A stretch of DNA of 63,431 bases, counting the filler, from Basidiobolus ranarum (lineage: Eukaryota): the NCBI GenBank assembly GCA_040143965.1. It is 6 parts of 6 records of this genome, joined end to end, with 100 filler letters (N's around TTAATTAATTAA, not from the genome) between each part and the next. Parts side by side here need not be neighbours in the genome. Positions count along the whole stretch, not along the records: positions 21,212 to 31,706 come from JASJQH010000700.1; 5 more parts are not named here. One strand, written 5' to 3'. The position numbers and the translations under genes are program-made. Positions 10,513 through 59,169 of this stretch are shown here, piece after piece; within the stretch, counting starts at the first letter, position 1; each line of letters starts with the position of its first letter. The notes below the pieces were generated by a model. That model made no database searches, was not told the origin of the DNA, and saw nothing but the letters and a program-made list of their open reading frames with translations.

Positions 10513-10612
10513 NNNNNNNNNNNNNNNNNNNNNNNNNNNNNNNNNNNNNNNNNNNNTTAATTAATTAANNNNNNNNNNNNNNNNNNNNNNNNNNNNNNNN
10601 NNNNNNNNNNNN
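10513..10612. other. Artificial contig-join linker (N44-TTAATTAATTAA-N44)
   Basis: Identical 100-nt block occurs five times; the 12-mer gives stops in all six frames. Confidence 0.97.
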
Positions 10613-20258: not shown

Positions 20259-21111
20259 TGTTGAAATTTGGTAAATAGCAACTCATTATTTAGTAGGTAT
20301 TTATTCATATTCTGATTATTTAGCACTTAATTCTACCATTTAAAAGTGTTCATTGCTTTAATTGATAGATATATATTCAGAACACTTTTACGAATTTTTA
20401 CTATTTTCTCAAAACCTTTCAAATCACCTCAAATTCTCACTCATGCCTAACAGGCATGTTTGTTATGATCTAGCACATCCAATAGCCCTATTTCATAGTA
20501 ATATATAGATAGGATATATTCCAATCAATAAAACTTAAGTGTCTGTTTCACACAATGAAAGCTGGTCTGAATTCAGATGAATCCTGATATTCTATGCTTA
20601 ATCATATAAATTGGATAAAAACAATGGCATATCAGCTCTCATCCATTGGAGCACCTCTAAACAAAGATGACTTTGTCATGACACTACTTGGGAGCCTGCC
20701 AGATGAGTTTGAGAACCTCATAGTTGCCCTAGAATCAAGATCAGAGCCACTAACAATGGAATATGTTGGTGCTAGGCTTTTGAATGAAGAATTAAGGAGA
20801 TCTAATTCTCAGCAAAATAATGCAGAACAAACAATTTTTGGAGCTGTAACACATCCAACAGGCTTCAATAATGGTGCCCCTATTAGGAAATTCAGCATCT
20901 GTAAGTATTGCAAGACACCAGGCCATTTAATCAAAGATTGCAGAAAAAGGATTTTTGCCAAAAAGCTAAAATTGGAACATGTAAATCAAGTAAGCACTGA
21001 TAGAGATCATCTATTTGTGTCTGCCCTATCAGTACCCACTAAAGAAGACTCAGAAACATGGTACATTGATTCAGGCGCTGCCCAGCATATGTAAAACAGG
21101 ACAGATTGGTT
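20259..21111 (+). mobile_element. Truncated copia LTR (~20259-20550) joined to gag zinc knuckle and protease
   Basis: TGTTGAAATTTGGTAAATAGCAACTC; LLGSLP, CKYCKTPGHLIKDC (CCHC), WYIDSGAAQHM. Confidence 0.9.
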
Positions 21112-21211
21112 NNNNNNNNNNNNNNNNNNNNNNNNNNNNNNNNNNNNNNNNNNNNTTAATTAATTAANNNNNNNNNNNNNNNNNNNNNNNNNNNNNNNNN
21201 NNNNNNNNNNN
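21112..21211. other. Artificial contig-join linker
   Basis: N44-TTAATTAATTAA-N44. Confidence 0.97.
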
Positions 21212-21654
21212 GCTCCATATACACTCTTGGCCTTTATGGTTGCCTGACCACCGTGAGCAGGGACGTCAAGAGTGTACGACTCGTCAGTGTCAAGATCGAG
21301 CCTGATATCGCTGCCACTAACACGAATCTCAAGTGCACTCAGCAATGGGAAGTTACCCTTGGGTCCAAGTGCTTGAGTGGGTACTGAGGTGGTAGGGGTA
21401 GGGAATGTAGTCTTGTCAACTGTATTAAGGAGTGAACCAAACTCCCCTTTGATAAAGATCAATTTTTTATAGCGGTCTACTGCTCTCTCAAGAATATCGG
21501 CTCCAACAGGGGCCTTGATGGAAATGTCAAGATTATTGTGATCGAGGTGAATAATATTATGGCCAATGTCCATCCTGTGAGGCAAGGGCCAAACCCAAGC
21601 CAAAGAAGAAGAAACCAAGAGAGAGATGGAGGTAAGAAGTTTAATGGCAATCAT
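21212..21654 (-). CDS. Beta-N-acetylhexosaminidase (GH20), N-terminal part, cut by the contig end
   Basis: Signal peptide, VWPLP start and DESYTLDVP...ATIKAKSVYG, typical of the GH20 N-terminal domain; TATA-like box near 21715. Confidence 0.88.
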
Positions 21655-22054
21655 AACGCAAACTAAAAGTCTATTGCTTCAAAATTAAATAAGGTAAACA
21701 TTCTGACAAGTCACTATATATAGGATTTCTAGTGACTGGGCTTTTGACTGATTTTAGCTTGGTTGGTCTTGCATCACGTCTCCAAAACTCCTATTTGCTT
21801 GAAGCGATTTTACGTGCAGCTATAGTATTACGTCAGAGACAATTAGATTGTCTGTTCAATTAAATCTTACTTTTTCAGTACTCTTAAGTGTGTATGAGTA
21901 TCTAATCAACATGAGCTCAGCTTAATTATTAAATTTTACCCCATTCTGTACTAGATATCTCAATGTACACATGTTATGTGCCCATACGCAAGATTCTATG
22001 CCATATATTGTGGTTAGAACCTGATGTCTCAGCATACAGGATTTTACTCTAAAA

Positions 22055-22170
22055 TTAGACGATGTCAGTACTTTCTTTAGACGAATCAAAATAAATTCTT
22101 AGACGCTTTACTTATCCTTTTTGGACGAAATGAAAATAATATTGAGACGATAAAAATATTAGTTTAGACA
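22055..22170. repeat. Phased direct-repeat array: six TTAGACG-like motifs with a 22-bp period
   Basis: Motifs start at 22055, 22077, 22099, 22121, 22143 and 22164 (TTAGACG x3, TTGGACG, TGAGACG, TTAGACA). Confidence 0.85.
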
Positions 22171-22213
22171 AGATAACAATGGCCAAAATGATGTTCTTTA
22201 CCTGTAAGAATCT

Positions 22214-22435
22214 TTAAGGAACAACCACATTCTATGTGGCACGTTATCCTGTTGGACGAGAGAAGATATCGGGTCGTTCATTACCGGACCAAAATTGGGT
22301 TGAAATGAACATCATATTTTTAGCCGCAAGCACGTCTCGACTCCAGAATATATTAAATTCGTTGTAGATCAATATATTGTAGAAGGTACGTTCTTGGATA
22401 TTCGTAGCTCAGTCCACGTTGGGTTCACACAGTAC
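22214..22435 (-). pseudogene. Degenerate C-terminus of a Fanzor/TnpB-like RNA-guided nuclease (decayed zinc finger plus RuvC-III)
   Basis: Manual translation ...RTFYNILIYNEFNIFWSRDVLAAKNMMFISTQFWSGNERPDIFSRPTG*RAT*NVVVP* fits CxxCxxxWNRDxNAAxNM...RPxxFxR; not in the supplied ORF track. Confidence 0.75.
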
Positions 22436-24975
22436 CTATTCCCAATACTCATGTCTTTAGTGACATACGAGTGTATGGTACTAGTACAGCTCTACCCCCA
22501 AGTATAGTGTAGTAGTTATTCAAAATGTTTACCAACTCTACAGCTAGTTTTGACATGTCAGCCACAGTAATCCAACAATCTCGTTCGCACTGGCTTTTGG
22601 AAAAGTCATTGTTATTCATTATCCATGATTCCTTGAGTTGAATCAATATCGATGATACATATGAGAAGTAAAGAAATGATCAACAACTGCAGGAAACTTG
22701 GTAATCCAATTCTACCACATAAATCGGCCATTGGGGTTGCTGCACGTTCTTGCTAAATGGCTTTACTAAAACTGTAGTATAGCATTTTCCAGAGCGGGAT
22801 ACCAATGTTGTTAAGCTTACCTGTAGCTGTAGATGTAGATGTAAATATAAAAGTGAGCCGAAGTATTATGTAGATAAATTGCTCAACAACAACTCTATGC
22901 ATGATCTCCATTTGGAAGGTGAAGTCCGATTTTTTACTATCACATATCTTTCAGGAAGCACACATTCTTCTATTCATAATTGCATACTTGTATGTATTCC
23001 GCATATTCTCATAACCCTCCGCCCATTGTGTAAACTCTGATTGAAATTCGAATATCCATAGCTTTTACTTTGAGAAGATGGTTGTAAAGCTAGTGATAAA
23101 CACTCATTAAGTTTAGACCATTACTCCTGATTGGAAGCTGCGGAACAAATAGCTTTACTATGGAAACTTCCTGAAGATTTGTATAGAGCGTCCATTTACT
23201 ATCAACCGAAAACTTGTTGTGAGTATGCATCAGACAACACATATTCCCGTTTACCACTTGCTATCGTTTAATCCCGCATATCTCAGGAAATCTATTTGGA
23301 ATCCAAGCGTATTTACATGTATGCACCCTGCCACTTACAACTCAGTACATTTCTTCTAATACTATTGTTCGTCATTGCGTGATTGGAGATACAGAGCAAG
23401 ATATATAGATTGACGTAGATTTATATGAATAATCCATTTAAACTTCTTGATATTAGGTTAATTGGATGATTTTATGGCTAGTGGTTGTGGTAGAGCTTAC
23501 AAGCATTGTAGGCATGATAAAATAGGGATGAAGGATACATGTACTCTGATGGTAGACTATATCTTGATCAGGTCAGTTCTTATAGTAGTAAATTTGTTGA
23601 ATACTGATCTTTGGGTGTACTCCGAAAGATTCACCCTCCATTACTGAGATATAGTAAAGATTACATGTTCACTCATCCAACTATCTGTGGGAGAAACAGA
23701 GAACGAGGATTACATATGATGGTACACTATCCAATATTATGAAAGTTAATGATTTCGTTTAGATGGCTGTTGCTTTTTATAAGTCTGAATACTTACCGTC
23801 ATCGCTCTATAATAATTACGAGAGTCACTGTCAATCTCAAGGGAGCAAGGTTTGCTATGGATTTCACCAGGTTGATCAACAAAATATTTTCTTGAATATC
23901 TAGAAACATCTGCTGATTCAAATTGTGTGAAAGGGAGTATTCCGTTGGGTTGATCTCTTAGATGCTCAAGAGCCGGCCGATGGTATCGAACAAATAGCTT
24001 AAGAGGAGGTCAGTCATGTAGTTAAATTGGGAAGTCGATGTAAATCACGAATCAATGATTGAACGGTAACCCGTAGCCTGTTTCTGCCTAGCCAAACTTG
24101 CAAGTGCATGTCTTTGTATATCGCTCATATGCATGCTCAGAATTGAATTTTCTTAGTTCCACATCACTATATATATATATACGTGTCAACCATCGCCTTT
24201 TTAATATCCTACGCATAAAACTCACTCAAACATTCATAAAAGTAGTCCGATTGATTAGTAATATGTAGCATCCGTATTGTGAGATTCACATTGATTGTCA
24301 AGGTTAAGTACAAATATGTATAGAGATGACATCAACAGTATTTGGTCAATCTGACAAATGGTCCAGCTTATATTCGGATCAAACATTTACTAGTGAAGAG
24401 CAACTTCATCTTAGCGGTGTAGCCCTCAATGGTTTTGATTGAACTTGCCGTCAGGATATACACTCCATCGAGATACGTGAACTTCGCGCAACCATATAAA
24501 AGTATTCTTACTCTTGCCATTTTATTACCGTATAGAGGGACGGTTGATTCTATGGATCCTGGATCAATTGAGAACGCAGGAAAGGGATTCACAAGCTTAA
24601 CTGCTTGAGTAGAGCAAAGTATCTGCAACATCCGGTGAATCGATAGCTAATAGAACAATGTGGCCAATGCATGCCGAAGAGAGAAAGGATTGTGGTGGGT
24701 CATATACTCTACAAACAGTCGATTACAAGCGAGAAATATATTCAATGGAATCAAATTCCTCCGAAGTTTGAATGGATATGGAGCGAACGAGGTAAAAAGT
24801 AGTGAGAATTTTCCTTCCACTCATCCCTCCCATTATTCTCCAGCAGATGAAAAGTGTCGATTATGATTCACCTCATACGCGCATATATATAAGCAACCTT
24901 CTCCCCCACTTCTTGCTGAGAATTATCAAAGTACTTCCCTAATTTTAGTCAGTTTCGTCTTCTCTTTTGAAAATC

Positions 24976-25968
24976 ATGTTCTTCCCTAGTCGGTATCTAC
25001 TTGTTGTTAGCATGCTCGGTAGCTTGAGTTTGGCACAAGATACTGGCGTCAATATCTTGACAGAGTGTACTAAGCCTGGTCTATTTGCACTCACCTTCGA
25101 TGATGGTAGGCTTAGATTAGTCGTTCGTTATCCAATTTTGGATACTTCTTAACTGATTTCTCAATGTTGTGTAGGACCAGGACCAGCTACGGGAGAATTA
25201 CTTGGAGTTTTGAAGAAGAAGAAAGTCAAGGCTACATTTTTCTCGCTCGGGGTACAGGCAAGAGATATTAATTTGGGGAAATACCTAAAGCAAGCATTGG
25301 ATGATGGTCATCAAATTGCCTCTCATACTGATCGACATCTATCTTTAAATACTCTAACTGTTGAAGAAATCCAAGAGGAAATGAAGATGGCAGATAAATC
25401 CATCAAACAAGCAACAGGTGTGATCCCAACATATATGAGACCACCTTACGGGGATTGCAATCCGGCTTGCCAAGAAGTAATGAAAACTATGGGGTACCAT
25501 ATCGTGGCTTGGAATGTGGATTCGAACGATTGGCAGTACGTTACCACACCTGAACGCTACGATTCCTTGGTTAAAAACATAGTTGAAAAAGTGAACCATT
25601 CAAACCCCAAGGTGGATAGCTTTGTCTCTCTACAGCATGATATTCATGATTTTAGCATTGAAAGAACCGCTAAAGTCATCGATGCTATTAAAGAGAAAGG
25701 CTATCAATTCACCACGGTTGCTGAATGCTTGGGAAATCAATGGCCCATGTACAGAAATGCTACCATGGCCAAATCAACAGTATCTATGGAGACAACCAGT
25801 GTACCCACTCCCACGACATCGACGAATTCAGCCAGCATCATTGTAGCTCAGACAAATGCCCTCAAATCGACACCATCCAACAACTTAACTAGCGAAAGTA
25901 ACCATTTGAATAGTTATTCTCACTTTTTGTGGTTGGTTGTGATGTGGTATTTTTTCTACCAGAACTAG
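24976..25968 (+). CDS. Chitin deacetylase (CE4/NodB), probably GPI-anchored; exons 24976-25105 and 25175-25968
   Basis: Spliced ALTFDDGP, HQIASHTDRH, MRPPYG, DSNDW and LQHD; signal peptide, Ser/Thr-rich tail and hydrophobic C-terminus. Confidence 0.95.
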
Positions 25969-26444
25969 ATATTCATCCATTTTGTTTACTATCAATACTC
26001 TCTTGAGTGGAGAACTCAATCGATTCACCGTTAGAATACCTGGATGTACACACAACCAATACCTTCATTCAAATATTCACTTTGTTTTTATTCATAGAAT
26101 GAATTGAAGAATGAACAGTCTATCTCAAATATTCCCATAAATAAGACATATGCACCTTTCCATTCAGGAGAACGATTAAAGTTATTATTCTTTCCTTGAG
26201 CTTTAAATTTTTCACTTGACATTCTACGAGTACCAGTAAGGTGCCCAAGGAACCAATTATCACGTAACGACGCTCGTTACAGATTAGATAGATAGATTTC
26301 TTGTTCGTGGACAACTATATGGCCATTTCACATTATGTATAGTGTCAAGTATAAAATTTTTACGAGGTTTTTCGATTATATATTTTTATTTCTAATTAGA
26401 GACGGCAATATATATACATAAATATACCATTGATTAAAGGTCCA

Positions 26445-27788
26445 TTAGTTGTTGATGGCCTTGATGATTTGTTTCCAATCATCCTCACTCAAGAGCTCGG
26501 GATACTTCTCCTTTAGAGCGGGAATAAGAGTCTTAAGAGATTGTTTTTGCTCAGGAGCAAAGCCATCACCAGATGAAGAAAGAGTAAGGATAAGGAACAA
26601 AGTCTAAGTGGAGAAATTGTATAGAGTATGAGTAGATTGAACCTATGGTACTAAATATATGATAAAATAGATCAAACCTTCTCTACGATCATTTCATTAT
26701 CTTGATCTTTTTCGGTACGTCTGATAACATCGCCAATAAGACCAGATTTCTGAAGATGTGCATAGGTAAGGAACTGTTGTTGAACCAAAGAGTTCAGCAA
26801 AAAGATGGTCTTGGTAATCAATGAAACATCATCCTCTTTGTTAAGAATATCCTTCAAGACTTGGAAGCCACCTTCGGCTGTGAAAATTTTAAAGCCCTCA
26901 GGGAAGTGTTTGATCAGACCTAATCAAAAATGATCATTAATAAAGAACATTCCATTAGCAGCTAAATAGCATTGCCAATTACCTGAAATACAGTACAGAG
27001 CCTTGGAGCGAACAGCATTATCTGTATCTTCGCGAAGAACACGAAGCATTGGTACTAAACCCTCATTGTCCATGAACTAAAACAAAAACAAAACAGTGAG
27101 TAAAAATTACTTCAATAGTCGTATCCAAGTCAACTTACTGCTTTCTGAGCTTTGGGATTGTTCTGAAGAGCAGTTCCACAAACCCAGGCGGCGTTCATAC
27201 GAAGAGAAGGATGAGGAGAATCAAGAACCTCAAGTAAGGGCTTCCAGAGGCGAAGATTTTCTAGATCTAATTGCAAAGTAAATTCGAATAAGATAAACGT
27301 TTTTTACTCGGTGACTGTATACAAGGATACATACTCATTGCATTATCGATCCCTTCAATAAGCTACAAAGATGAGAAGAAACTTTTAGTATGATTGTTTA
27401 CTAATTCAAAGGTTGCGGAATTATTTTTAAGTAGCATACCATTTCCAAATCATCAAAAGCAATTTCTTTGGCCTCCAAAGGGGTCTCGGCATCCTTGATG
27501 GCAGTCATACATTCTAATGGATAAAACTAAATAAGTCAAAGTTCACTGAAAACTCCATTGACCTCTGTAGGTACCTAACATTCTGGTGGCGTCGTCTTTA
27601 CCCAAGATGGCATCAATAATACCCGGATCCTACACAAAAATCATATTAGCTAATAAGTTCATTTGGAGTATCGATTCCAATGAGTAACTCCTTACAAGCT
27701 TCTGCATTTCAGAAGGAGTCCTTGATGAAGGAGCATCTTCACTTTCGGTAGCTTGGTTAACAATAGCCCACTGTAACAGTTTGTCCAT
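26445..27788 (-). CDS. FES1: Hsp70 nucleotide exchange factor Fes1/HspBP1 (about 8 exons)
   Basis: Exon translations MDKLLQWAI, AFDDLEM|LIEGIDNA, AAWVCGTALQNNPKAQ and VRSKALYCIS; GT-AG introns. Confidence 0.93.
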
Positions 27789-27897
27789 TTTCAAAGAAAG
27801 ACCAGTATATGTTCTAAAAACTAAGTGTTCAACGACCTAAGTGCTCCTTTTAATACCAAACCCAGCCCGCCCCCCGTATTCCAATTTTTTTTTCCAA

Positions 27898-27935
27898 TTT
27901 CCAGATTTCTCCCGAATCCTCTGGAAATTCCTCGA
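27898..27935. promoter_or_regulatory. Imperfect heat-shock-element-like cluster upstream of FES1
   Basis: Clustered TTC/GAA units (ttccagatttc...gaatcctctggaaattcc) 110-150 nt upstream of a chaperone cofactor gene; not a perfect HSE. Confidence 0.3.
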
Positions 27936-28564
27936 TTAATGACTAATTGATTAAGATCTGTTTGTTTCGCTGAATTTAGAAAGAAAAAAAAAGAAACAGA
28001 TTAAACAAAACCATAACTGATTTTAACTTGCTTAAATCTAACACGTCATAACTATCAAATCATCAATGCTCAACATTACTTCACCGTCATATCGAATCAA
28101 AAGATCCATGTAACAATCATATCAAAGCAGGCTCTGCACAAAATTCGAGGAACTATTTCGCATGATTTAAATGCAGTTAAACTATTAGAGATACAGATCG
28201 AAAATCTTCAGTAAACAGATTCACAGTACAACCAGAAAGTTCGCGAAATTTCAGTAAGTTGAAATTGCGGTTGATTAAGGGAGCATTGAGAAAAGTAAAC
28301 TGTAACTTTCTCTCATAATGACCCCTGACATTTCAAATTTTCCCCTTCGCTTGCAAATTTAACCATCGTTGGGGTGTGCCATTATCATTCGGATAATTGA
28401 ATCTAACGATCTATAGAAGCCCCTGTAAAATAAATATTTCTTTAAAAAGACCAAGATTACGAAGGATATTGAGTGGTTTATTCGATGGAGCAATTTTCAG
28501 AATGATAATGAACGTAAATGCTATTCTGTTAATTCATATTCATAATTAACTTGTCCACGATAAT

Positions 28565-29380
28565 TTACCATGCAGTGGACTTGCTACTTTTTGGGTTGCG
28601 AGCTGGTAACATTTTGAGAGTTCCTTTGTTGTAAGGGACGGTGTTGATGACAACATTAGTATTCCAGCCCTTCTTTTCAAATGACTTACGGGCATTCTTA
28701 TTCTTAGAGTCCCAGCATCTGTTCCACTTACAAACACCAAGACGATCGCCCCAGCCAATAGCGCAAACTTGTTTCTTTGGATTACGAGCATCACCACCTT
28801 CGAATGCGGCTGGTTGCTTGTTTCCCTTGGGACCACCTTTAACAATGATATCGGAGCAAGAGTAGAAGTCACCATGACCTTGAATTGAACCATACCAAGA
28901 CCATTGCATAGTCCACTCGCCATCACCCAACCATTTTGGAATCTTGATTGCAGTGTTACAACCTTTTCCGCGAGTGCCTAATTTGTCATTGTTGGATTTA
29001 CCTTGACCGGAGCAACCAACGCCAGCTTCGTAGCAGGAGTATTTATGGACGTTCTTGTTAAATTCATTGGCACTCTTGGATTTCTTGGTTTGGGCGAAGG
29101 CTAAGCGAACAAATCCACCAGGATGATTGTTTCTTGCCCAAGAAACCTTGATCTCGTCCCCTCTCTTGTAAACCTTACGCTTATTAAGTGGGGTGACCAC
29201 CGTGGTCTCGCAAGGACCATAGCATTTCTTAGGATTGGAGCCAGTGAATGTCTTACCATCCAAGCGGCACTGACCGCGATCAACGCGTGGGGCAGGGTTG
29301 GTCAAATAGGAATGACTTTCGACATTCCCAATACAAGCTAAAGCTAGTACCGCCAAAGTAAGATAAACTTTTCCAAACAT
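28565..29380 (-). CDS. Secreted histidine-brace, LPMO-like copper protein (family unassigned), Lys-rich and intronless
   Basis: Signal peptide ends ...VES|HSYLTNPAPR (His1); second His in RNNHPGGFVR; WTMQWSWY and FYSCSDIIV match the LPMO QWxW...YxxCxD pattern. Confidence 0.8.
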   Translation of the reverse strand: MFGKVYLTLAVLALACIGNVESHSYLTNPAPRVDRGQCRLDGKTFTGSNPKKCYGPCETTVVTPLNKRKVYKRGDEIKVSWARNNHPGGFVRLAFAQTKKSKSANEFNKNVHKYSCYEAGVGCSGQGKSNNDKLGTRGKGCNTAIKIPKWLGDGEWTMQWSWYGSIQGHGDFYSCSDIIVKGGPKGNKQPAAFEGGDARNPKKQVCAIGWGDRLGVCKWNRCWDSKNKNARKSFEKKGWNTNVVINTVPYNKGTLKMLPARNPKSSKSTAW

Positions 29381-30289
29381 GATGCTCCTAAAGTATTATG
29401 AATAAAGTATGAAATAAACTTCAATGTGCGCTGCACAAATTCGATATGATAAATGAAAGAGACGAAGATGTATGTATTTATACGAATTCAAGGTTTCGAC
29501 TTGGTATAAATCCCGAATTTCTACAAGTCACTTTGAGTTACAGTAATAATTCTAGTATCACCTAGGGAATATACATTTTCGCGAAGATAAGACCGGATCG
29601 AGCGGTCAAAGACACCATTCATCTTGCGATGGGTACTCTTGACAATAGAGACTCACTTGCATTGCTCATCCTTAAAACTCTTAAACTTTCCGTGGGGTCT
29701 CAATATAACGCGCTCACCATTGGCTTACATCATAATTTAATATATTTAGAATCAAATCTTAATCAGAGAAAATCTTAATTTCAGTCACAGCATTAAGGTA
29801 ACGTGAGCGTAATTTATTGAGTTTTTGTCACCCGTGAACTGGTGTAGGTCTTTTCATTAAAAGGAAGTGGCTCAAAGCCATCCGGCATCAGCTAGCCTAA
29901 TATGCAAAGAGGTGGGAGTACCAAGGGAGAATCTCTTTCAGTTTTGTCCGAAGAGACCTCAAAGCGACCCCGTTGATTTTTCATTCACACATCGAAGACA
30001 AAGTATACTAATGCATGTATGTATGAGTTTCACTGGGTTGATCTTATCATTCTAATTCAAGATATCCACTGCGATCAATTTTATCTGTCATAACTACTAT
30101 TCAGCAGTGAAGGTCAGAATCATGTTAAGGTCCTCTGTGCCGTCGCCGTCATACAGCATTTAGCAACAAGGGGAATTTGTTCATAATGTCGATAATCCCA
30201 CTTTCCTATTATAGTTCAATATTTGATAAATACGCCGCAGAAACGACGGACTATTGGATGATCAGGAGAATGCGCCCACAATGGGCAAG

Positions 30290-31105
30290 CTATATATGGT
30301 AATTGGTAATTAAAACTTCAATTCCAGATGGTTTGATTAAAGTAATAGGCATTTTCCGTAAAGCATTGACCTAAATGATCCCTTTGTCGAAAACATCGAC
30401 ATGTTTGAACTCACTGAGGAAGAGAATTCTTAATATACTAACATATTGAAGGATAAACCGGAAGACGATACAAAGGTTAAGGAAGTTTTTATCAACCTGC
30501 AAACTTTTATGAAGATCGACAAGGAAGAGGAAGAGGAACAAGAGGAGGGAGAAACAGCGTACTTAAATCCTGAAGAAGCATTGGCTGTAAATGAAAATGC
30601 GCTCGAGTCTACGACACGGAGAGATGGCTATCGCTCCTAAACCAACGAACAGATAGCAAGGTTCATTTCGCTTGTCAATTTTGAAGGTTGCTCGAGAAGA
30701 AAGGCTGCCATTGTAGCGGGTATCAACCTCAGAGCAGCCTGTAACTACTGTAATCGATACATCGCTGATGAAAAGGGCAGAGAAGGGGCCGAAACCTAAC
30801 GTTAAAACAAGTTCACACAAATCATCTTCTGAACTATGTTGAAAAAAACCCTATAACCGTCTTGGAGGATATCAAGGATGACCATTGTGCAGCTTTTGAG
30901 GGTCTTACGATTGGTAAAACAGCACTACACAATCATTTGAAAGAAAAGTGCGACCTTCCCTCAAAAAACTGGAGAAGCAGAAGGCAGCAAGAAAAACCAA
31001 ACGGATCCTGGACTTGAGACGTGAGCGTATTTTTCAGTGAGAGGCTATGCCGGATATGGATTTCAAAAGAACAGTGTTTATCGATGAAGCTGGCTTCCAT
31101 CTTCT
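30290..31105 (+). mobile_element. IS630/Tc1-mariner transposase relic, ending just after the first catalytic Asp
   Basis: HTH-like text KAAIVAGIN, then VEKNPITVLEDI...IGKTALHNHLKEKC...VFIDEAGFHL; stops and frameshifts. Confidence 0.85.
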
Positions 31106-31517
31106 ATATATTATTCCAAATCAACATATTAATAATATATTTCAAGAATCATTCAATGTTATGAATGAGAAATATTCATGTTCCTATTGATTAATTAATA
31201 TCAAGTCTATATGATGATAATATTTAATCAGAAGGAGACATCTCTCCATGATCTGTATAAGATAGATAACAGATATAAGGAGAACTATAAAGAAAAAACA
31301 TAGACAAGTCCAAAAAAGTGTTGAACACAACTATCCTGCCATATTTTAGGCAGTGGTCCAATGTGCTTATGTCTCTGCCCCTAAGTGACACCGTCATTAA
31401 TAGGGCCACGGTCACTCCCTTGCATTCCTGAGACAGATAAAGAAATTTAGCCAATCGACTAATCTCAAAGGGAAGCTATTTATTAATGAAACATTCAGAA
31501 ATATATCACATCAGTTA

Positions 31518-31706
31518 TCATTTAGAGCTAGACTGTTTTTGATGCCACGCGAACGCCGTGTTGATAAAGCTCCTGAATTCAACCGCGAGGTGTTCAGCGT
31601 GTTCATCAAAGAATACTTCAGGTGCCGCGGCAGGGAATAGGAGTCGCAGGCGGAAGTCACAACCTTCTTCCGAATCCCGAATCTCCTGTAAGATGTAGAA
31701 CAGAAC
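31518..31706 (-). CDS. C-terminal 62 aa of an unidentified, GC-rich protein (rest lies beyond the contig end)
   Basis: Frame open from the contig edge: VLFYILQEIRDSEEGCDFRLRLLFPAAAPEVFFDEHAEHLAVEFRSFINTAFAWHQKQSSSK*. Confidence 0.6.
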   Translation of the reverse strand, partial: VLFYILQEIRDSEEGCDFRLRLLFPAAAPEVFFDEHAEHLAVEFRSFINTAFAWHQKQSSSK

Positions 31707-31806
31707 NNNNNNNNNNNNNNNNNNNNNNNNNNNNNNNNNNNNNNNNNNNNTTAATTAATTAANNNNNNNNNNNNNNNNNNNNNNNNNNNNNNNNNNNNNN
31801 NNNNNN
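31707..31806. other. Artificial contig-join linker
   Basis: N44-TTAATTAATTAA-N44. Confidence 0.97.
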
Positions 31807-38955: not shown

Positions 38956-41900
38956 TATCAAATTTAGAAAATTAAAATGAAAATGCAGCTGCAAGAAAAG
39001 GGACTTTGGGACACAGTTGTAGGGGATGGAAATATATAAAAAATTATCTGAAACCAAAATTTTACCCCAGCTAGAAAAAGAACAAAGTGCCTTTAACAAA
39101 TTTGTCATAATGGTGGCAAGAAGGTATGGAGTGCCTCAGAAGACACCTACCAAACATGCTTTGAGGCCAACAAGAAGCTTCTGGGAAGGCAATATGCTCA
39201 CTTAAAGATGTAGCCAGAAGAAGGCATTAAATACTCATGGATAGATTTGATATTTTAGTGGATGACATGGAATGCATTGGAGTACCTACAACTGATCAAG
39301 GTATCATAGTTACAGTCCTGAATGACCCACCACACAAGTTTCAGAGCCTAGTAATACCTTTACAAATAAACAATATCAATTTGATCTTAAACTATATAAT
39401 TGATAGACCTATGGATGAATATTTATGCAAATCAAGATTCAGCTAAAAGAATGAAAAACAGGCTCTAATAGGCTATTATAAACTTTCCTAAATAAGGTCA
39501 AAAGTGCTTTGAAATAAAAGTAACACATTTTGTGATAATGATAGAAAACTGGCAATTTGAGTAATGATTACTTTGAAAGAACTGCAAAAGAAGCAAAATA
39601 TACTGAATCTGGAATGTCTTTGCAAAAAAAGATTACTTGTCCATATTGCCTCATACTGTGCCAATTAACAAGGATTCTCAGAAGTGGTATATTGATTCTG
39701 AAGCCTTGCAACATTGCATAAATGAAGAACTTTGGTTAGTGAATTACAAAGAAATACTAATCAGACTGGTTTTCTTGGGAGATTACAATACATTTTATGA
39801 AATTGGAATGGAAACAATTCAAGTCAATTCAACTGCAGCTTCTGAAGAGAAAGTATATACATTTAAGGATGTATTCCATGCTTCAGATATTGCCAAGAAC
39901 TTGATATTTGTATGCAAGGCTATCTCAGAAGCGCTAAAATTCAATTTTGAAAAGTCAAAATGTGCCATCACCAATCAAAATAGGAATGATTTTGATTTGA
40001 GATAAAAGGATCAGAGATGATACAAACCTACCTAAAATTAAGAAGGTTTATGTGCAACCATTTGTTATTTTAATCAAGAAGATATTCAATTATGGTATCA
40101 GAGATTTGGTCATTTTGGTTTTGATTATTTGAGCAAAATGATCAGAAATTGCCTATATTTGGCAATTCAATTTAACTTCCCATCTAAAATGGAAATTTGT
40201 GAGGGTTAAATACATGTATATTCAGGTGGGAAAAGACACTTCATCACATTTATTGATGATTATTCAATATGCACTTGGGTCTACTTTATAGAAGAATTAG
40301 AAAGAGCTCTCTTTATCTTGGGAGATTTAAAATACTTATGGAGACTGAAACCAGAACTAAAATCAAAAAAATTTGTGCAGTCAATGGTGGTAAGTTCTTC
40401 AACAGTTTTCAATCACTTTTACAAAGTCCATGGTATTAAGCAAGACACTACTGCCTTCTATTCACCTGAACAAAGTGGAGTTGATGAAAAAGCAAACAGG
40501 ACTATGATATAAATGGCAAGATATATGATGAGTGCACAAAATTTACCTTATAATTTTTAGGTGGCATCGTTAGATAAAGATGTATATCTGAAGAATAGAA
40601 GTTTTACAAGAGGTTTGTCTAACTCTATGCCATGTCAAGGTTGGACTGGAGTTAAGCCTAATGTAAAATATTTGGGGATCTTTGGATGCATTGCTTATGT
40701 CAAAATGATGACCAAAAGATGGTCTAAATTTGATCTAATAGGTAAGAAATGTATATTTCTGGGTTATTGGACTCAAACTAATGCCTAAGGACTCTATGAT
40801 ACCAAAATATCCTAGTAAATCAAGTCCAGGGATGTTACGTTTGATGAAAAGGAAAAATATTCATCCACATTGACCTCACATGATGACAAAAATCAATTTT
40901 CTTCTGATTCAATCATTCAAATTGTTTTAAACCAAAACAATGAAGAAAATAGCATTCCTGAGGACCCTGTGACCAAAACTCTACCAGAAGTTGCAGTACT
41001 CTCAACCCAAACCAGTAGATTAAACAGTTCAGAAATACCCTTGATTACTGTATCAACAAGTCCCAAAATAGGATCTCTGCCTGCACATCAGTAGTACATG
41101 AGCCTCATACTTCAAAAGTGGTCCTGAATGGCCCTGACACAAAATCTTGGGGAGCTGCAATGGCTGATGAGGACCATGCTTTGATTTACAATTATACTTG
41201 GACTCTAACCAATGGATTGGATTATTGAAAATCAATTGGCTTCCATTATGTGTTTGAAGTTAAGTACAACCATGAAGGCAATAATGAAAGGTACAAGGCT
41301 AGGTTAGTAGCCAAAGATTATTCCCAAGCACCAGGAAGAGATTATCTAAAGATCTTTGCTCCTGCAGCAAAATGTAATTCAATTAGATTGATTTTAGCAA
41401 TCACAACTAAGAAACAGCTTATTATACATCAAATGAATGCAAAAAAACACTTTAATGAATGGTAAGCTTGCTGAGGAGATTTACATGACCAGCCAGAAGG
41501 GTTTGTGGACCTAGAAAACTTTGAAAAGTTTACAGACTCTGGACAATGCTTTATAGCTTAAAGCAAACTCCATGAGCTTGAAATAGCAAGATAGATACTT
41601 TTTGGAAACACTCATATTCCTAAAGTGTAATGCTGACTGTAATATCTACTTTGGGCCAGTAAAGATAAACCTCATTTATTTAGCCTTATATGTAGATGTT
41701 CTGATTATATAACCAATGACTCATAGACTTTGGAGAAAGCCAAATCCAGCTTATCTGCTAAATTCAAAATGACTGATCTTAACAAATTAACATAGTATCT
41801 TGGAATAAAAAGTTAGGATAGATTGAACTACCAATACATAAGCTTTAATGCAGTCTAAGTCTATCCTTGATATAACAAAGAAGTTCAAAATTCAAGAATG

Positions 41901-42299: not shown

Positions 42300-42399
42300 N
42301 NNNNNNNNNNNNNNNNNNNNNNNNNNNNNNNNNNNNNNNNNNNTTAATTAATTAANNNNNNNNNNNNNNNNNNNNNNNNNNNNNNNNNNNNNNNNNNNN
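42300..42399. other. Artificial contig-join linker
   Basis: N44-TTAATTAATTAA-N44. Confidence 0.97.
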
Positions 42400-52874: not shown

Positions 52875-52974
52875 NNNNNNNNNNNNNNNNNNNNNNNNNN
52901 NNNNNNNNNNNNNNNNNNTTAATTAATTAANNNNNNNNNNNNNNNNNNNNNNNNNNNNNNNNNNNNNNNNNNNN
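52875..52974. other. Artificial contig-join linker
   Basis: N44-TTAATTAATTAA-N44. Confidence 0.97.
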
Positions 52975-57800: not shown

Positions 57801-59169
57801 GTACAGAACACACCATATGGCACCTTCTGTAATCTAGTTCATGCATTGGACTGGGTATTTGTTACCTTGACTTCCTAGTTCTTAAATACACTCTATACCG
57901 CCTGGTTGAGGATCATGGCATTCTTAACGTGTTTGGGTGGTGCTTGTGCATGTCTATTCTTAATATTTTTTGGTCGAGGGGAGGGGGATCAGTTAATTTG
58001 GGATGATTTCCATGCAATCAGTGATGTCAGTTGCCTTTTCCTAAACTAACTTAGAAACCTTCGAGCCAAGAGATGTACTTAATTGACTTAGCTAGAAGTG
58101 ATTGAGCTGGACATATGACATCAATAGAGTTCAACAAACTCAGAAACGTCTTTTAATATCATGACTAGATGGCAGTGAGTTGCTCCCAGGACACAGTATT
58201 GCTTGGAAAGTTATCCTAGAATACACTTTGCTTTATTATATAGGATGGATTGACTATCATATTACTGATGAGTGTTACTGTCAAAGTTTCTTTTAGACCC
58301 CACATTCCTGGCATTAAATGGTAACAAAATCTAAAGTAGAAGATCCTTATTTGATTCTTTCTCTTTCCCAAAGAAACCTCGCTCCATGATAGATATTGCC
58401 AGTGAAAGATAGATCTAGCAATTGATCATGAAAGGCTGAAGCTACTACTGTAGCAAAGAAGTCAGTACTTTCTTTGTAAATTCCAATTTTCTAGTTGCAT
58501 CAGAACACACGTGTTGATATTTGTACTGACTCAAGTTATGAGCCAGTTCGTTTTCCTCTTTCACAGATAGGCGAATGATGGACAAGTGTGGTCAGACATA
58601 CAGTTTACCAGTTCAATGGTCAGATACTAAGAAACTTATGCTTGCTTGCTTTGATGAGTGATTATCTTTGAGATCTTGAAAGCAATTTCAATGCTTTACA
58701 CTCTAGTCAATCAAATATATATTTGTTATTCCTTTTCCATAACCTTCTCTAGGTGAACAATCTCACATGGTTAGTCGTAATTAGAGTGGATGTTTAATAT
58801 CATGTACTGACGTAATGGTGCTTAAGAGCCGAGTACAATTGTAGCGTGAAATGGAAATGATACAAATGGAATGGATGCGTTTATGACAGTCAAGCATCGG
58901 AGTGAATTCAAGATTTGATTGCAAGCAAAAACAGAGTATTCATACATAGAAAGGGAGCATGGGCAAATAATGTTTATAAGGAAGTCCAGGTGAATTTCTC
59001 AATATCTGGATATCCCTTTCGTCAATAATTCTACTGTAGCAAGTAAACAAGTTGGAAATGCTCAACAGTTGCGAGTTTGTAAATATGCTTGGTGTGTTTC
59101 TTTCGCGATATCCATTCAAAATTCAATCACAAATGCTCATCATAGGAATTCCTCCCAAGATAATGACCT

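What the first reader, a model, noticed from the sequence alone, without database searches (positions are those of the whole stretch)
22055..22170. Six TTAGACG motifs phased every 22 bp, just downstream of the Fanzor relic
Seen: motif starts are 22, 22, 22, 22 and 21 bp apart, with largely unrelated AT-rich spacers of about 15 nt (units 2 and 4 resemble each other). A conserved motif with divergent spacers at two helical turns points to protein-binding sites on one DNA face rather than a simple tandem repeat. Known: IS607-family ends carry helically phased direct repeats bound by the serine transposase, and some TnpB/Fanzor genes ride on IS607-like elements. Inference: these are transposase-binding sites defining the host element end near 22047. 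A less likely reading is a repeat-spacer segment of the transcribed RNA.
Basis: partly seen in the sequence, partly recalled or inferred. Interest (0 to 1): 0.7.

Follow-up and report, generated by a model that had tools for sequence, protein, structure and literature searches.

The report
Phased motif array behind dead Fanzor gene
Six copies of a short DNA word, spaced exactly two helical turns apart, lie just behind the broken tail of a Fanzor (RNA-guided nuclease) transposon gene in a fungal genome; they look like protein docking sites at the transposon's end, but this could not be tested on other copies.

Summary
The array is real. Six same-strand heptamers start at 22055, 22077, 22099, 22121, 22143 and 22164. 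Three are exact TTAGACG and three differ by one base. It is the only such structure in the 63-kb window (33 of 35 matches; 200 simulated windows reached at most 30). The 15-nt spacers are no more alike than their composition predicts.

The "Fanzor relic" is also real, but it lies on the minus strand. Window 22396-22256 is 85% identical to the C-terminus of a Rhizopus microsporus Fanzor-type protein (E 4.8e-18). Its stop codon is at 22200-22198, 27 nt before the array. Fanzor1 elements carry their guide-RNA scaffold and right end in this position.

The IS607/serine-transposase reading is not supported. The relatives are Fanzor1-type, no recombinase gene was found, and the IS607 motifs I read about are phased at about one turn, not two. 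The array does not fold as RNA and is not a whole-unit tandem repeat.

Best reading (confidence 0.4): sub-terminal protein-binding sites of the carrier transposon's right end, now stranded 400 bp upstream of a hexosaminidase gene. No other copy could be examined, because the genome is not held and the metagenome and viral scans found nothing. The function is therefore inferred.

The parts
22055..22170 (+). Array of six phased heptamers. As read on the + strand: TTAGACG x3, then TTGGACG, TGAGACG, TTAGACA. Each is followed by a 14-15 nt AT-rich spacer. In the Fanzor relic's orientation (minus strand) the motif reads CGTCTAA.
22198..22396 (-). C-terminal remnant of a Fanzor1-type gene (RuvC-III 'RD..AAKNM' segment). 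22396-22256 aligns to P0001 residues 201-247 at 85% identity. A frameshift follows, then 22254-22231 reads 'QQDNVPHR'. The tail 'MWLFLKDSYR' resembles the end of P0002. The stop codon TAA is at 22200-22198. The second CxxC of the zinc ribbon is lost (CNDC in P0001, YNEF here).
22171..22197 (-). 27-nt linker between the relic's stop codon and the first array unit, in the relic's direction.
   Evidence: Read from the sequence.
22046..22052 (+). ACTCTAA, a 5-of-7 inverted copy of the motif. With unit 1 it forms the palindrome TCTAA-AA-TTAGA (22048-22059). It is too short to be significant.
   Evidence: Read from the sequence.
21213..21654 (-). First exon or N-terminal part of a secreted beta-N-acetylhexosaminidase (Glycohydro_20b2, E 4.1e-13). 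It is cut by the end of the piece. Its ATG is at 21654-21652, 400 bp from the array and on the same strand as the Fanzor relic. TATATATA lies at 21716-21723.
   Evidence: TATA read.

Best explanation
The array belongs to the 3' non-coding tail of a dead, 5'-truncated Fanzor1-carrying transposon on the minus strand. It most likely consists of sub-terminal binding sites for a DNA-binding protein of the carrier element, either its transposase or an accessory protein. One site would occupy every second helical turn, so that several protomers could line up co-operatively along the right end.

Shown:
- The array is real, strictly phased and unique in the window.
- Only the 7-8 bp core is conserved.
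- It starts 27 nt after the stop codon of a Fanzor1-type gene remnant, in the same orientation.

Inferred:
- That it is part of the element rather than host DNA.
- That the core is a protein-binding site.
- That the binder is encoded by the transposon.

The carrier is not an IS607-type element; which superfamily it belongs to is unknown. At this locus the element is dead, so the array is a relic. Its present position, 400-515 bp upstream of a hexosaminidase start codon, is probably incidental.
For: Reality of the array:
- It scores 33 of 35 in-phase matches. It is the only place in the window scoring 30 or more, and the 200 simulated windows reached at most 30.

Selective conservation:
- Motif identity is 86%. 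Spacer identity is 38%, against 34% expected from composition.
- The conserved columns are contiguous (643 of 200,000 column shuffles). The motif is 45% G+C and the spacers 21%.
- If the spacers have diverged to background, three exact and three one-off heptamers cannot be neutral leftovers of a whole-unit tandem repeat.

Link to the transposon:
- The only Fanzor remnant that tblastn with P0001-P0003 finds in the window ends 27 nt from the array. By my own rough estimate, about 0.5% of positions in 63 kb lie that close.
- In Spizellomyces Fanzor1 loci, about 80 nt separate the stop codon from the 3' inverted repeat and hold the guide-RNA scaffold (PMC10432273 passages). In Fanzor1 elements the terminal repeats are predicted to lie inside that RNA region (PMC10711439 passages). 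The stretch just behind the stop codon is therefore where a right end is expected.

Precedent:
- Multiple short direct motifs bound co-operatively by a transposase are documented for IS607-family ends, and sub-terminal repeats for hAT elements (PMC6188088 passages).

Not RNA and not coding:
- The array folds worse than shuffles on both strands (z +1.36 and +2.02).
- Rfam gives nothing beyond one chance-level hit elsewhere.
- A 22-bp period is not a multiple of 3.
Against: - No second copy of the array or of the element could be examined, so membership of the element and the position of its end are inferred from adjacency alone.
- No matching inverted cluster of the motif exists elsewhere in the 10.5-kb piece. 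No convincing terminal inverted repeat or target-site duplication brackets the region. The 5' part of the element is missing, so this is weak evidence.
- No transposase gene was found nearby.
- According to the passage I read, hAT sub-terminal repeats have variable spacing and mixed orientation. A strict 22-bp same-strand phase is unusual for them.
- The Fanzor elements listed in the DNA supplement of PMC3627910 show only 10 isolated occurrences of the heptamer in 470,471 characters and no array. A motif split by a line break would have been missed.
- 22 bp is 2.1 turns, so the six sites drift by about half a turn across the array. This is my own arithmetic.
Confidence: 0.4

Rival explanations
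1. The array is a host cis-regulatory element, or a transposon piece co-opted as one. A cluster of transcription-factor sites would form an upstream activating or repressing region for the hexosaminidase gene, whose start codon lies 400 bp away on the same strand.
For: - The array sits 400-515 bp upstream of the ATG at 21654 and about 330 bp upstream of a TATATATA element. My recollection is that this is a typical distance for fungal upstream elements.
- Only a short core is conserved, as expected for factor-binding sites.
- The neighbouring genes are both secreted chitin-related enzymes, a GH20 hexosaminidase and a CE4 deacetylase.
Against: - The motif is not enriched elsewhere in the window. 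There are 6 exact hits against 3.5 expected, and 3 of them are the array itself.
- No copy lies upstream of the deacetylase gene.
- Lying 27 nt from a transposon gene's stop codon would then be a coincidence.
- I could name no factor for this word, and the literature word search returned only primers and barcodes.
Confidence: 0.17
2. The array is a functionless by-product: an old 22-bp minisatellite in the transposon's tail or in host DNA whose units have decayed, with the surviving core being luck or a mutational cold spot.
For: - A strict head-to-tail period is the signature of tandem duplication.
- Units 2 and 4 still resemble each other.
- From memory, tandem repeats are common in transposon tails.
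Against: - Spacers are at background identity (0.38 against 0.34) while the core is 86% identical, with three perfect copies.
- The column-shuffle test gives 643 of 200,000.
- TRF does not see a repeat.
- The adjacent coding remnant is only 15% diverged at protein level from a Rhizopus copy. The element is therefore not old enough for the spacers to have reached saturation neutrally.
Confidence: 0.18
3. The array acts at the RNA level. It would be part of the Fanzor guide RNA (omega/reRNA) transcribed from the minus strand, or a repeat-spacer-like segment of it.
For: - The position is right: directly 3' of the stop codon, where Fanzor1 guide-RNA scaffolds lie (PMC10432273 and PMC10711439 passages).
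- The spacer length of 14-15 nt equals the 14-15 nt guide reported for SpuFz1. It also matches the roughly 15 nt by which insect-virus Fanzor1 RNAs extend past the target-site duplication.
Against: - The array is less structured than shuffled controls on both strands. Sliding 120-nt windows on the minus strand give z of +0.4 to +1.0 over it.
- There is no Rfam match.
- A 7-nt repeat cannot carry a scaffold.
- The spacers are 79% A+T.
- Only one spacer has a near match elsewhere in the window (17 of 18 at 58458-58475, blastn E 0.61 for the 3.3-kb query). That match has no motif beside it.
- Complementary segments flanking the array are no better than 10% of control windows.
- Expression could not be checked.
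Confidence: 0.07
4. One reading: binding sites for an IS607-type serine transposase that define the end of an IS607-like element carrying the Fanzor gene.
For: - IS607-family ends do carry several short direct motifs, helically phased in IS1535 and bound co-operatively by TnpA (PMC6188088 passages).
- Fanzors as a whole descend from IS607 TnpBs (PMC10711439 abstract).
Against: - The relatives are Fanzor1-type.
- No Fanzor1s appeared to be encoded in IS607 transposons (PMC10711439 passage). Fanzor2 alone rides on IS607-type elements (PMC3627910 abstract).
- No Resolvase domain was found in 47 of the 63 ORFs of 90 aa or more in the window. None was found in the 40 ORFs of 40 aa or more in 21693-24989, nor in 24 short ORFs next to the array.
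- The IS1535 motifs are 9 bp long and lie about 20 to 60 bp from the terminus; the paper measures spacing in increments of 10 - 11 bp.
Confidence: 0.03

Closest known systems
Sub-terminal TnpA-binding motifs of IS607-family transposons (IS1535 left end; PMC6188088, passages read)
   Same: Several copies of a short direct motif sit in one orientation near a mobile-element end, in helical phase. Transposase dimers bind them co-operatively and form a filament.
   Different: There the motifs are 9 bp long and lie about 20 to 60 bp from the terminus, with spacing measured in increments of 10 - 11 bp. The element encodes a serine recombinase and a TnpB or Fanzor2. Here the period is 22 bp, there are six units over 116 bp, the partner gene is Fanzor1-type, and no recombinase gene is present.
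Sub-terminal repeats of eukaryotic cut-and-paste transposons (hAT as described in PMC6188088; CACTA and Harbinger recalled from memory)
   Same: Many copies of a 5-12 bp word in the sub-terminal region recruit the transposase or an accessory DNA-binding protein. Fanzor1 genes ride on such elements: Mariner, Helitron, IS4-like, Sola and MuDr (PMC3627910 abstract), and hAT and Crypton (PMC10711439 passage).
   Different: Those repeats are described as variable in spacing and orientation and occur at both ends. Here the phase is strict, the orientation is single, and only one end is visible.
3' region of Spizellomyces punctatus Fanzor1 loci (PMC10432273, passages read)
   Same: The stretch directly behind the Fanzor stop codon is a conserved non-coding module that ends at the element's right inverted repeat.
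   Different: There it is an 80-nt segment encoding a structured 75-nt guide-RNA scaffold. Here it is a 116-bp unstructured AT-rich array with a repeated heptamer.
Iterons of bacterial plasmid origins (recalled from memory, not tested)
   Same: Direct repeats are phased at about 22 bp, on roughly one face of the helix, and bound by one protein.
   Different: Iterons are conserved over most of the unit and sit next to a rep gene at an origin. This is nuclear fungal DNA with only 7-8 conserved bases per unit. The 22-bp TTAGACG arrays found in bacteria and phage contigs were mostly whole-unit tandem repeats.

Membership tests
IS607-family transposon end | The element encodes a serine recombinase (TnpA, Resolvase domain). 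| tested here: not met
   No Resolvase or Recombinase Pfam hit in any of three scans. These covered 47 of the window's 63 stop-to-stop ORFs of 90 aa or more, 40 of the 45 ORFs of 40 aa or more overlapping 21200-24900, and 24 of the 27 ORFs of 20 aa or more overlapping 21655-22250. Caveat: Pfam also missed the true Fanzor remnant, so decayed genes can escape this test.
IS607-family transposon end | The partner nuclease is an IS607-type TnpB or Fanzor2. | tested here: not met
   The relative P0002's best solved match is SpuFz1 (8gkh, E 5e-9), against the mimivirus TnpB-like L79 at 5.5e-5. P0002 carries TDG at 447 and DPG at 491. PMC10711439 (passages) names TDG as a Fanzor1 hallmark and reports that no Fanzor1 appeared to be encoded in IS607 transposons.
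IS607-family transposon end | Short direct motifs within roughly 20-80 bp of the terminus, spaced at increments of 10-11 bp in the studied case. | tested here: not met
   The period here is 22 bp (21 for the last step) over 116 bp. The comparison rests on PMC6188088 passages, which also say that spacing varies between family members.
IS607-family transposon end | GG termini, insertion at GG, and no target-site duplication. | not testable with these tools
   The end of the element cannot be located without other copies. No genome is held.
Fanzor1 gene (the neighbour of the array) | C-terminal RuvC-III segment and zinc ribbon homologous to Fanzor proteins. | tested here: met
   Window 22396-22256 (minus strand) matches P0001 (PF07282) with E 4.8e-18 at 85% identity. 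It matches P0002 at 47% identity (E 1.7e-8) and P0003 at 56% (E 1.6e-7). The RD..AAKNM motif is kept.
Fanzor1 gene (the neighbour of the array) | An intact open reading frame. | tested here: not met
   Only about the last 56 codons are recognisable. There is a frameshift at 22255, the CxxC is replaced by YxxF, and upstream there are stop codons and no similarity to P0001 residues 1-200. The 76-aa ORF just upstream has no relatives at all: 0 hits among 1.84 billion representatives.
Fanzor/TnpB guide RNA (omega RNA) scaffold | A stable multi-stem fold. | tested here: not met
   Minimum free energy is -17.7 kcal/mol (+ strand) and -15.8 kcal/mol (- strand) for 171 nt, against shuffle means of -22.3 kcal/mol on each strand. 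That gives z of +1.36 and +2.02. Sliding windows agree.
Fanzor/TnpB guide RNA (omega RNA) scaffold | Transcribed as a small RNA ending about 15 nt beyond the right end. | not testable with these tools
Tandem repeat / minisatellite | Similarity over the whole unit. | tested here: not met
   TRF at minimum score 30 reports nothing here. Spacer identity is 0.38 against 0.34 expected from composition.
Sub-terminal repeats of a cut-and-paste transposon | The same word clustered at both ends of the element, with terminal inverted repeats and a target-site duplication. | tested here: inconclusive
   There is no cluster of the motif on the opposite strand in the piece. The candidate inverted repeats are short and lack duplications, for example 14 nt at 21693 and 22520. 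The 5' part of the element is missing, so absence is expected either way.
Sub-terminal repeats of a cut-and-paste transposon | The array recurs with the element in other copies. | not testable with these tools
   No genome is held. Metagenome scans found no relatives, nor did the viral-contig scan. There are no look-alikes among earlier windows of this scan.

The most novel reading that the evidence does not exclude
The array is a small arrayed-guide module of a Fanzor1 system. A transcript from the minus strand would carry six 14-15 nt variable segments, each bounded by the constant heptamer CGUCUAA. The segment length equals the guide length measured for other Fanzor1 RNAs. That would make it a eukaryotic, CRISPR-array-like multiplication of the guide position, or of right-end-plus-flank units captured in successive transposition or homing events.

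The evidence does not exclude this: the position, strand and spacer length all fit. But the lack of RNA structure, the 7-nt repeat and the low-complexity spacers make it unlikely.
Probability: 0.03. Interest if true: 0.95.

Novelty: new variant of a known kind. Interest (0 to 1): 0.4.

Why it matters
How Fanzor1 genes travel is still unclear. They sit on several unrelated transposon superfamilies, and for many fungal families the ends and the mobilising enzyme are unknown (PMC3627910, section 12).

If this phased array recurs behind other copies of this Fanzor lineage, it would mark the right end of a new carrier. It would also give a concrete DNA word with which to fish for the protein that mobilises it.

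It would further show what occupies the space where other Fanzor1 elements keep their guide-RNA scaffold. That bears on how the nuclease, its RNA and the transposase share the same few hundred bases.

If it is instead single-copy host DNA, it is an unusually regular natural promoter array in an early-diverging fungus. Either outcome is modest in scope. The finding is a lead, not a result.

Tried and rejected
- **Own genome and read data.** Not available, so copy number, polymorphism and expression are untested.
- **Pfam on ORFs around the array.** Searches found no Fanzor or TnpB domain even at E up to 10. I first concluded that the relic was absent. A minus-strand 'RDxxAAxNM' motif seen, followed by the word-indexed protein search, overturned that.
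- **Whole-stretch translation.** Sent to the Pfam scan and turned down because of stop codons. I then sent separate ORFs.
- **phmmer on the upstream ORF.** The 76-aa ORF at 22449-22679 (minus strand) gave 0 hits among 1.84 billion representatives. Faint collinear tblastn matches further upstream (E 7-16) map the same protein region to two places, so I treat them as chance.
- **Candidate second relic at 41587-41684** (E 0.54). Its neighbourhood reads like a Copia reverse transcriptase; rejected.
- **Pattern scan for three in-phase TTAGACG.**
  - Viral contigs gave 8 loci. Prokaryote genomes gave 112 loci, estimated at about 120 in all.
  - In the rows of the 120 loci that I could see, most were whole-unit 11- or 22-bp tandem repeats or palindromic Bacteroidota repeats (the output was cut in the middle).
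  - A few, such as L021, L032, L037, L038 and L106, showed a conserved motif with varying spacers. I did not follow these up.
  - These hits do not bear on the fungal array.
- **Relatives of the Fanzor tail with flanking DNA.**
  - Metagenome contigs by protein: 99 pattern matches, none confirmed.
  - A degenerate pattern for AAKNMMFI: 9 loci, none a convincing relative and none with a phased array in the four loci checked.
  - Viral contigs by alignment: 77 pattern matches, none confirmed.
- **Supplements of PMC3627910.**
  - The protein file lacks this lineage's signature strings.
  - The DNA file has 7 and 3 isolated hits for the two orientations of the heptamer and no array.
  - Line breaks could hide matches.
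- **Literature search for the heptamer.** 3,228 papers matched; the 20 listed were primers or barcodes.
- **Similarity of 21655-24966 to the rest of the window.** Nothing below E 0.01.
- **RNA readings.** Rfam gave one chance-level hit elsewhere. Folds were weaker than shuffles. The complementarity flanking the array is -22.4 kcal/mol, equalled or bettered by 10% of 1,010 control windows.
- **Spacers as guides.** There is one 14-of-15 match (17 of 18 with flanks) at 58458-58475, with nothing notable beside it.
- **Earlier notes of this scan.** Nothing near this place or resembling it.

Full report
**What the window is.** The 63,431-base window is not one stretch of chromosome. It holds six pieces of about 10.5 kb joined by N44-TTAATTAATTAA-N44 linkers. 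The finding lies in the third piece (21212-31706).

That piece carries ordinary fungal genes:
- The start of a secreted GH20 beta-N-acetylhexosaminidase on the minus strand (21213-21654, Glycohydro_20b2, E 4.1e-13). It is cut by the piece's edge.
- A CE4 polysaccharide deacetylase on the plus strand, from about 24967.

The 3.3 kb between them has no ORF longer than 92 aa. The deacetylase is 100% identical to a protein that a source names as Basidiobolus ranarum. The contig recorded for that protein is 10,495 bases long, the same as the piece. The piece is therefore probably a whole contig of a fragmented assembly.

**The observation.** Three are TTAGACG and three differ by one base (TTGGACG, TGAGACG, TTAGACA). 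An A follows in five of six, so the core is TTAGACGA.
- I scanned every period from 9 to 60 for five in-phase heptamers. This is the only place in the window with 30 or more of 35 matches; it has 33.
- 200 Markov simulations of the window never exceeded 30.
- The spacers are 79% A+T. Their pairwise identity is 0.38, against 0.34 expected from composition alone. The core's pairwise identity is 0.86.
- The conserved columns form one contiguous block. Only 643 of 200,000 column shuffles did as well.
- Tandem Repeats Finder sees no repeat.

The structure is real and non-random. It is not a decayed whole-unit repeat, because something has kept the core while the rest is unrelated.

**The neighbour.**
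- *False negative from Pfam.* Pfam scans of the local ORFs found no TnpB or Fanzor domain, even at E 10. For a while I took the 'Fanzor relic' to be imaginary.
- *How the relic was found.* A six-frame read of the minus strand showed 'FWSRDVLAAKNMMF', the look of a RuvC-III motif.
  - The 54-aa ORF 22408-22244 (minus strand) then hit a 256-aa Rhizopus microsporus protein carrying PF07282, with E 4.8e-18 and 85% identity.
  - tblastn places P0001 residues 201-247 on 22396-22256. After a frameshift, residues 248-255 fall on 22254-22231.
- *End of the gene.* The frame runs on as 'MWLFLKDSYR' to a TAA at 22200-22198. This tail resembles the end of the 789-aa relative P0002 ('MWLLLTHPGEFAI').
- *State of the gene.* It is dead. 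The second CxxC of the zinc ribbon reads YxxF, there is a frameshift, and nothing upstream of about 22400 resembles residues 1-200 of P0001. The adjoining 76-aa ORF has no relatives at all.
- *Type of Fanzor.* The relatives are Fanzor1-type. P0002's best solved match is Spizellomyces SpuFz1 (8gkh, E 5e-9). P0002 also has TDG 44 residues before the DPG of RuvC-I. Passages of PMC10711439 describe these as Fanzor1 and Fanzor-clade signatures.

In the relic's own direction the order is therefore: Fanzor C-terminus, stop codon, 27 nt, six CGTCTAA units, about 400 bp, hexosaminidase ATG.

**What the array is likely to be.** It is the only such array in 63 kb, and it starts 27 nt from the end of the only Fanzor remnant that tblastn finds in the window. 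Chance adjacency is improbable, and I take the array to be part of the element's 3' tail.

[quoted passage not shown] In insect-virus Fanzor1 elements, the terminal repeat and target-site duplication are predicted to lie inside that RNA (PMC10711439 passages). The array thus occupies the place of the right-end module.

As RNA it is a poor candidate:
- It folds worse than shuffled controls on both strands (z +1.36 and +2.02; sliding windows).
- Nothing in Rfam matches.
- The complementary segments flanking it are unremarkable.

A short conserved word in one orientation, every second helical turn, with free spacers, is the anatomy of co-operative protein-binding sites. My best reading (confidence 0.4) is sub-terminal binding sites for a DNA-binding protein of the carrier transposon, now a relic.

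**Why not IS607.**
- Passages of PMC6188088 describe IS1535's four 9-bp motifs as helically phased, about 20 to 60 bp from the left-end terminus. The paper measures spacing in increments of 10 - 11 bp, so the motifs are about one turn apart. Other family members are less regular.
- The abstract of PMC3627910 says Fanzor2 alone rides on IS607-type elements. PMC10711439 says no Fanzor1 appeared to be encoded in IS607 transposons.
- No recombinase domain was found in the ORFs I scanned. Pfam's miss of the real relic shows that this test is weak for decayed genes.
- According to these papers, Fanzor1 carriers include Mariner, Helitron, IS4-like, Sola, MuDr, hAT and Crypton elements, and some fungal families remain unclassified. 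Which carrier applies here is unknown.

**Rivals.**
- *Host promoter element for the hexosaminidase gene (0.17).* The distance is plausible, but the word is not enriched elsewhere, and this reading leaves the adjacency to the relic unexplained.
- *Functionless decayed minisatellite (0.18).* This fits the strict period but not the core-versus-spacer contrast. It also fits poorly with a coding remnant only 15% diverged from a Rhizopus copy.
- *RNA-level role (0.07).* Position and the 14-15 nt spacer length fit. That length equals the reported Fanzor1 guide length, which is worth remembering. Structure and composition speak against it.

**What could not be done.** The decisive test is whether the array recurs behind other copies of this Fanzor tail, and where the copies stop being alike.
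- Scans of metagenome contigs and viral contigs found no relatives.
- The prokaryote and viral pattern scans returned mostly ordinary whole-unit tandem repeats.
- Earlier notes of this scan hold nothing similar.
- The Fanzor elements in the DNA supplement of PMC3627910 show only isolated occurrences of the word, and its protein supplement lacks this lineage.

The functional reading is therefore an inference from one locus.

**Verdict.** The association with a Fanzor remnant is confirmed. The IS607 mechanism is not supported. The general idea of mobile-element protein-binding sites is the best available reading but remains untested.

Interest is moderate (0.4). The array is an undescribed feature in the right-end region of a Fanzor1 element, and it is worth one genome-wide BLAST. 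It rests on a single dead copy.

Noticed in passing
window 10513-10612, 21112-21211, 31707-31806, 42300-42399, 52875-52974: The window is a concatenation of six pieces of about 10.5 kb joined by N44-TTAATTAATTAA-N44 linkers. Features on either side of a linker are not neighbours in the genome. The Copia gag relic at 20588-21094 is not next to the array.
   Followed up: yes
window 22231-22396 (minus) versus 25210-25965 (plus): The host gene next door is 100% identical to a Basidiobolus ranarum protein. The Fanzor tail's best match is a Rhizopus microsporus protein at 85% identity. This cross-phylum likeness suggests horizontal spread of the element. I built no tree.
   Followed up: partly
window 22252-22259: A seventh copy of the extended core (TTGGACGA, identical to unit 4) lies inside the Fanzor coding remnant, exactly 88 bp (4 x 22) from unit 6. 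The three in-phase positions between them hold no motif. There it encodes the conserved residues 'SR|QQ'. It may be coincidence, or a hint that the array's word derives from the end of the gene.
   Followed up: partly
window 58458-58475: A 17-of-18 match to spacer 1 plus its flanks (array 22061-22078) lies in another piece, in ORF-poor DNA with no motif beside it. The blastn E-value is 0.61 for the 3.3-kb query, so it is probably chance.
   Followed up: partly
window 22002-22042 and 22223-22261: Two short complementary segment pairs flank the array in a crossed, pseudoknot-like order (14 nt at 86% and 16 nt at 75%). The duplex energy of -22.4 kcal/mol is matched or beaten by 10% of 1,010 control windows, so they are not significant.
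   Followed up: yes
window 22244-22408 (minus): Pfam's PF07282 model did not detect this true Fanzor remnant even at E up to 10. A sequence search against the large protein set found it at E 4.8e-18. Domain scans alone under-call short transposon relics in this genome.
   Followed up: yes
L011, L017, L035, L036, L091, L098, L102, L103 (Parabacteroides); L016, L019, L027, L029, L083 and others (uncultured Parabacteroides): Two multi-copy families of short repeat blocks in Parabacteroides genomes carry TTAGACG at a 22-bp period. The units contain small palindromes (TTAGAGGTACCTCTAA-like, or CGTCTAACAGCTGTTAGACG-like). They look like dispersed REP-like elements. They are unrelated to the fungal array and I did not identify them.
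   Followed up: no
L021, L032, L037 (Pirellulales MAG); L038 (Arenicellales MAG): These bacterial loci have TTAGACG(G) recurring at 22 bp with spacers that do differ between units, unlike most of the other scan hits. Three near-identical copies occur in one Pirellulales genome. I did not examine them further.
   Followed up: no
window 21213-21654 (minus) and 24967-25968 (plus): Two secreted chitin-related enzyme genes, a GH20 hexosaminidase and a CE4 deacetylase, are divergently arranged around a 3.3-kb ORF-free stretch. Apart from the Fanzor tail, that stretch has no recognisable content.
   Followed up: partly
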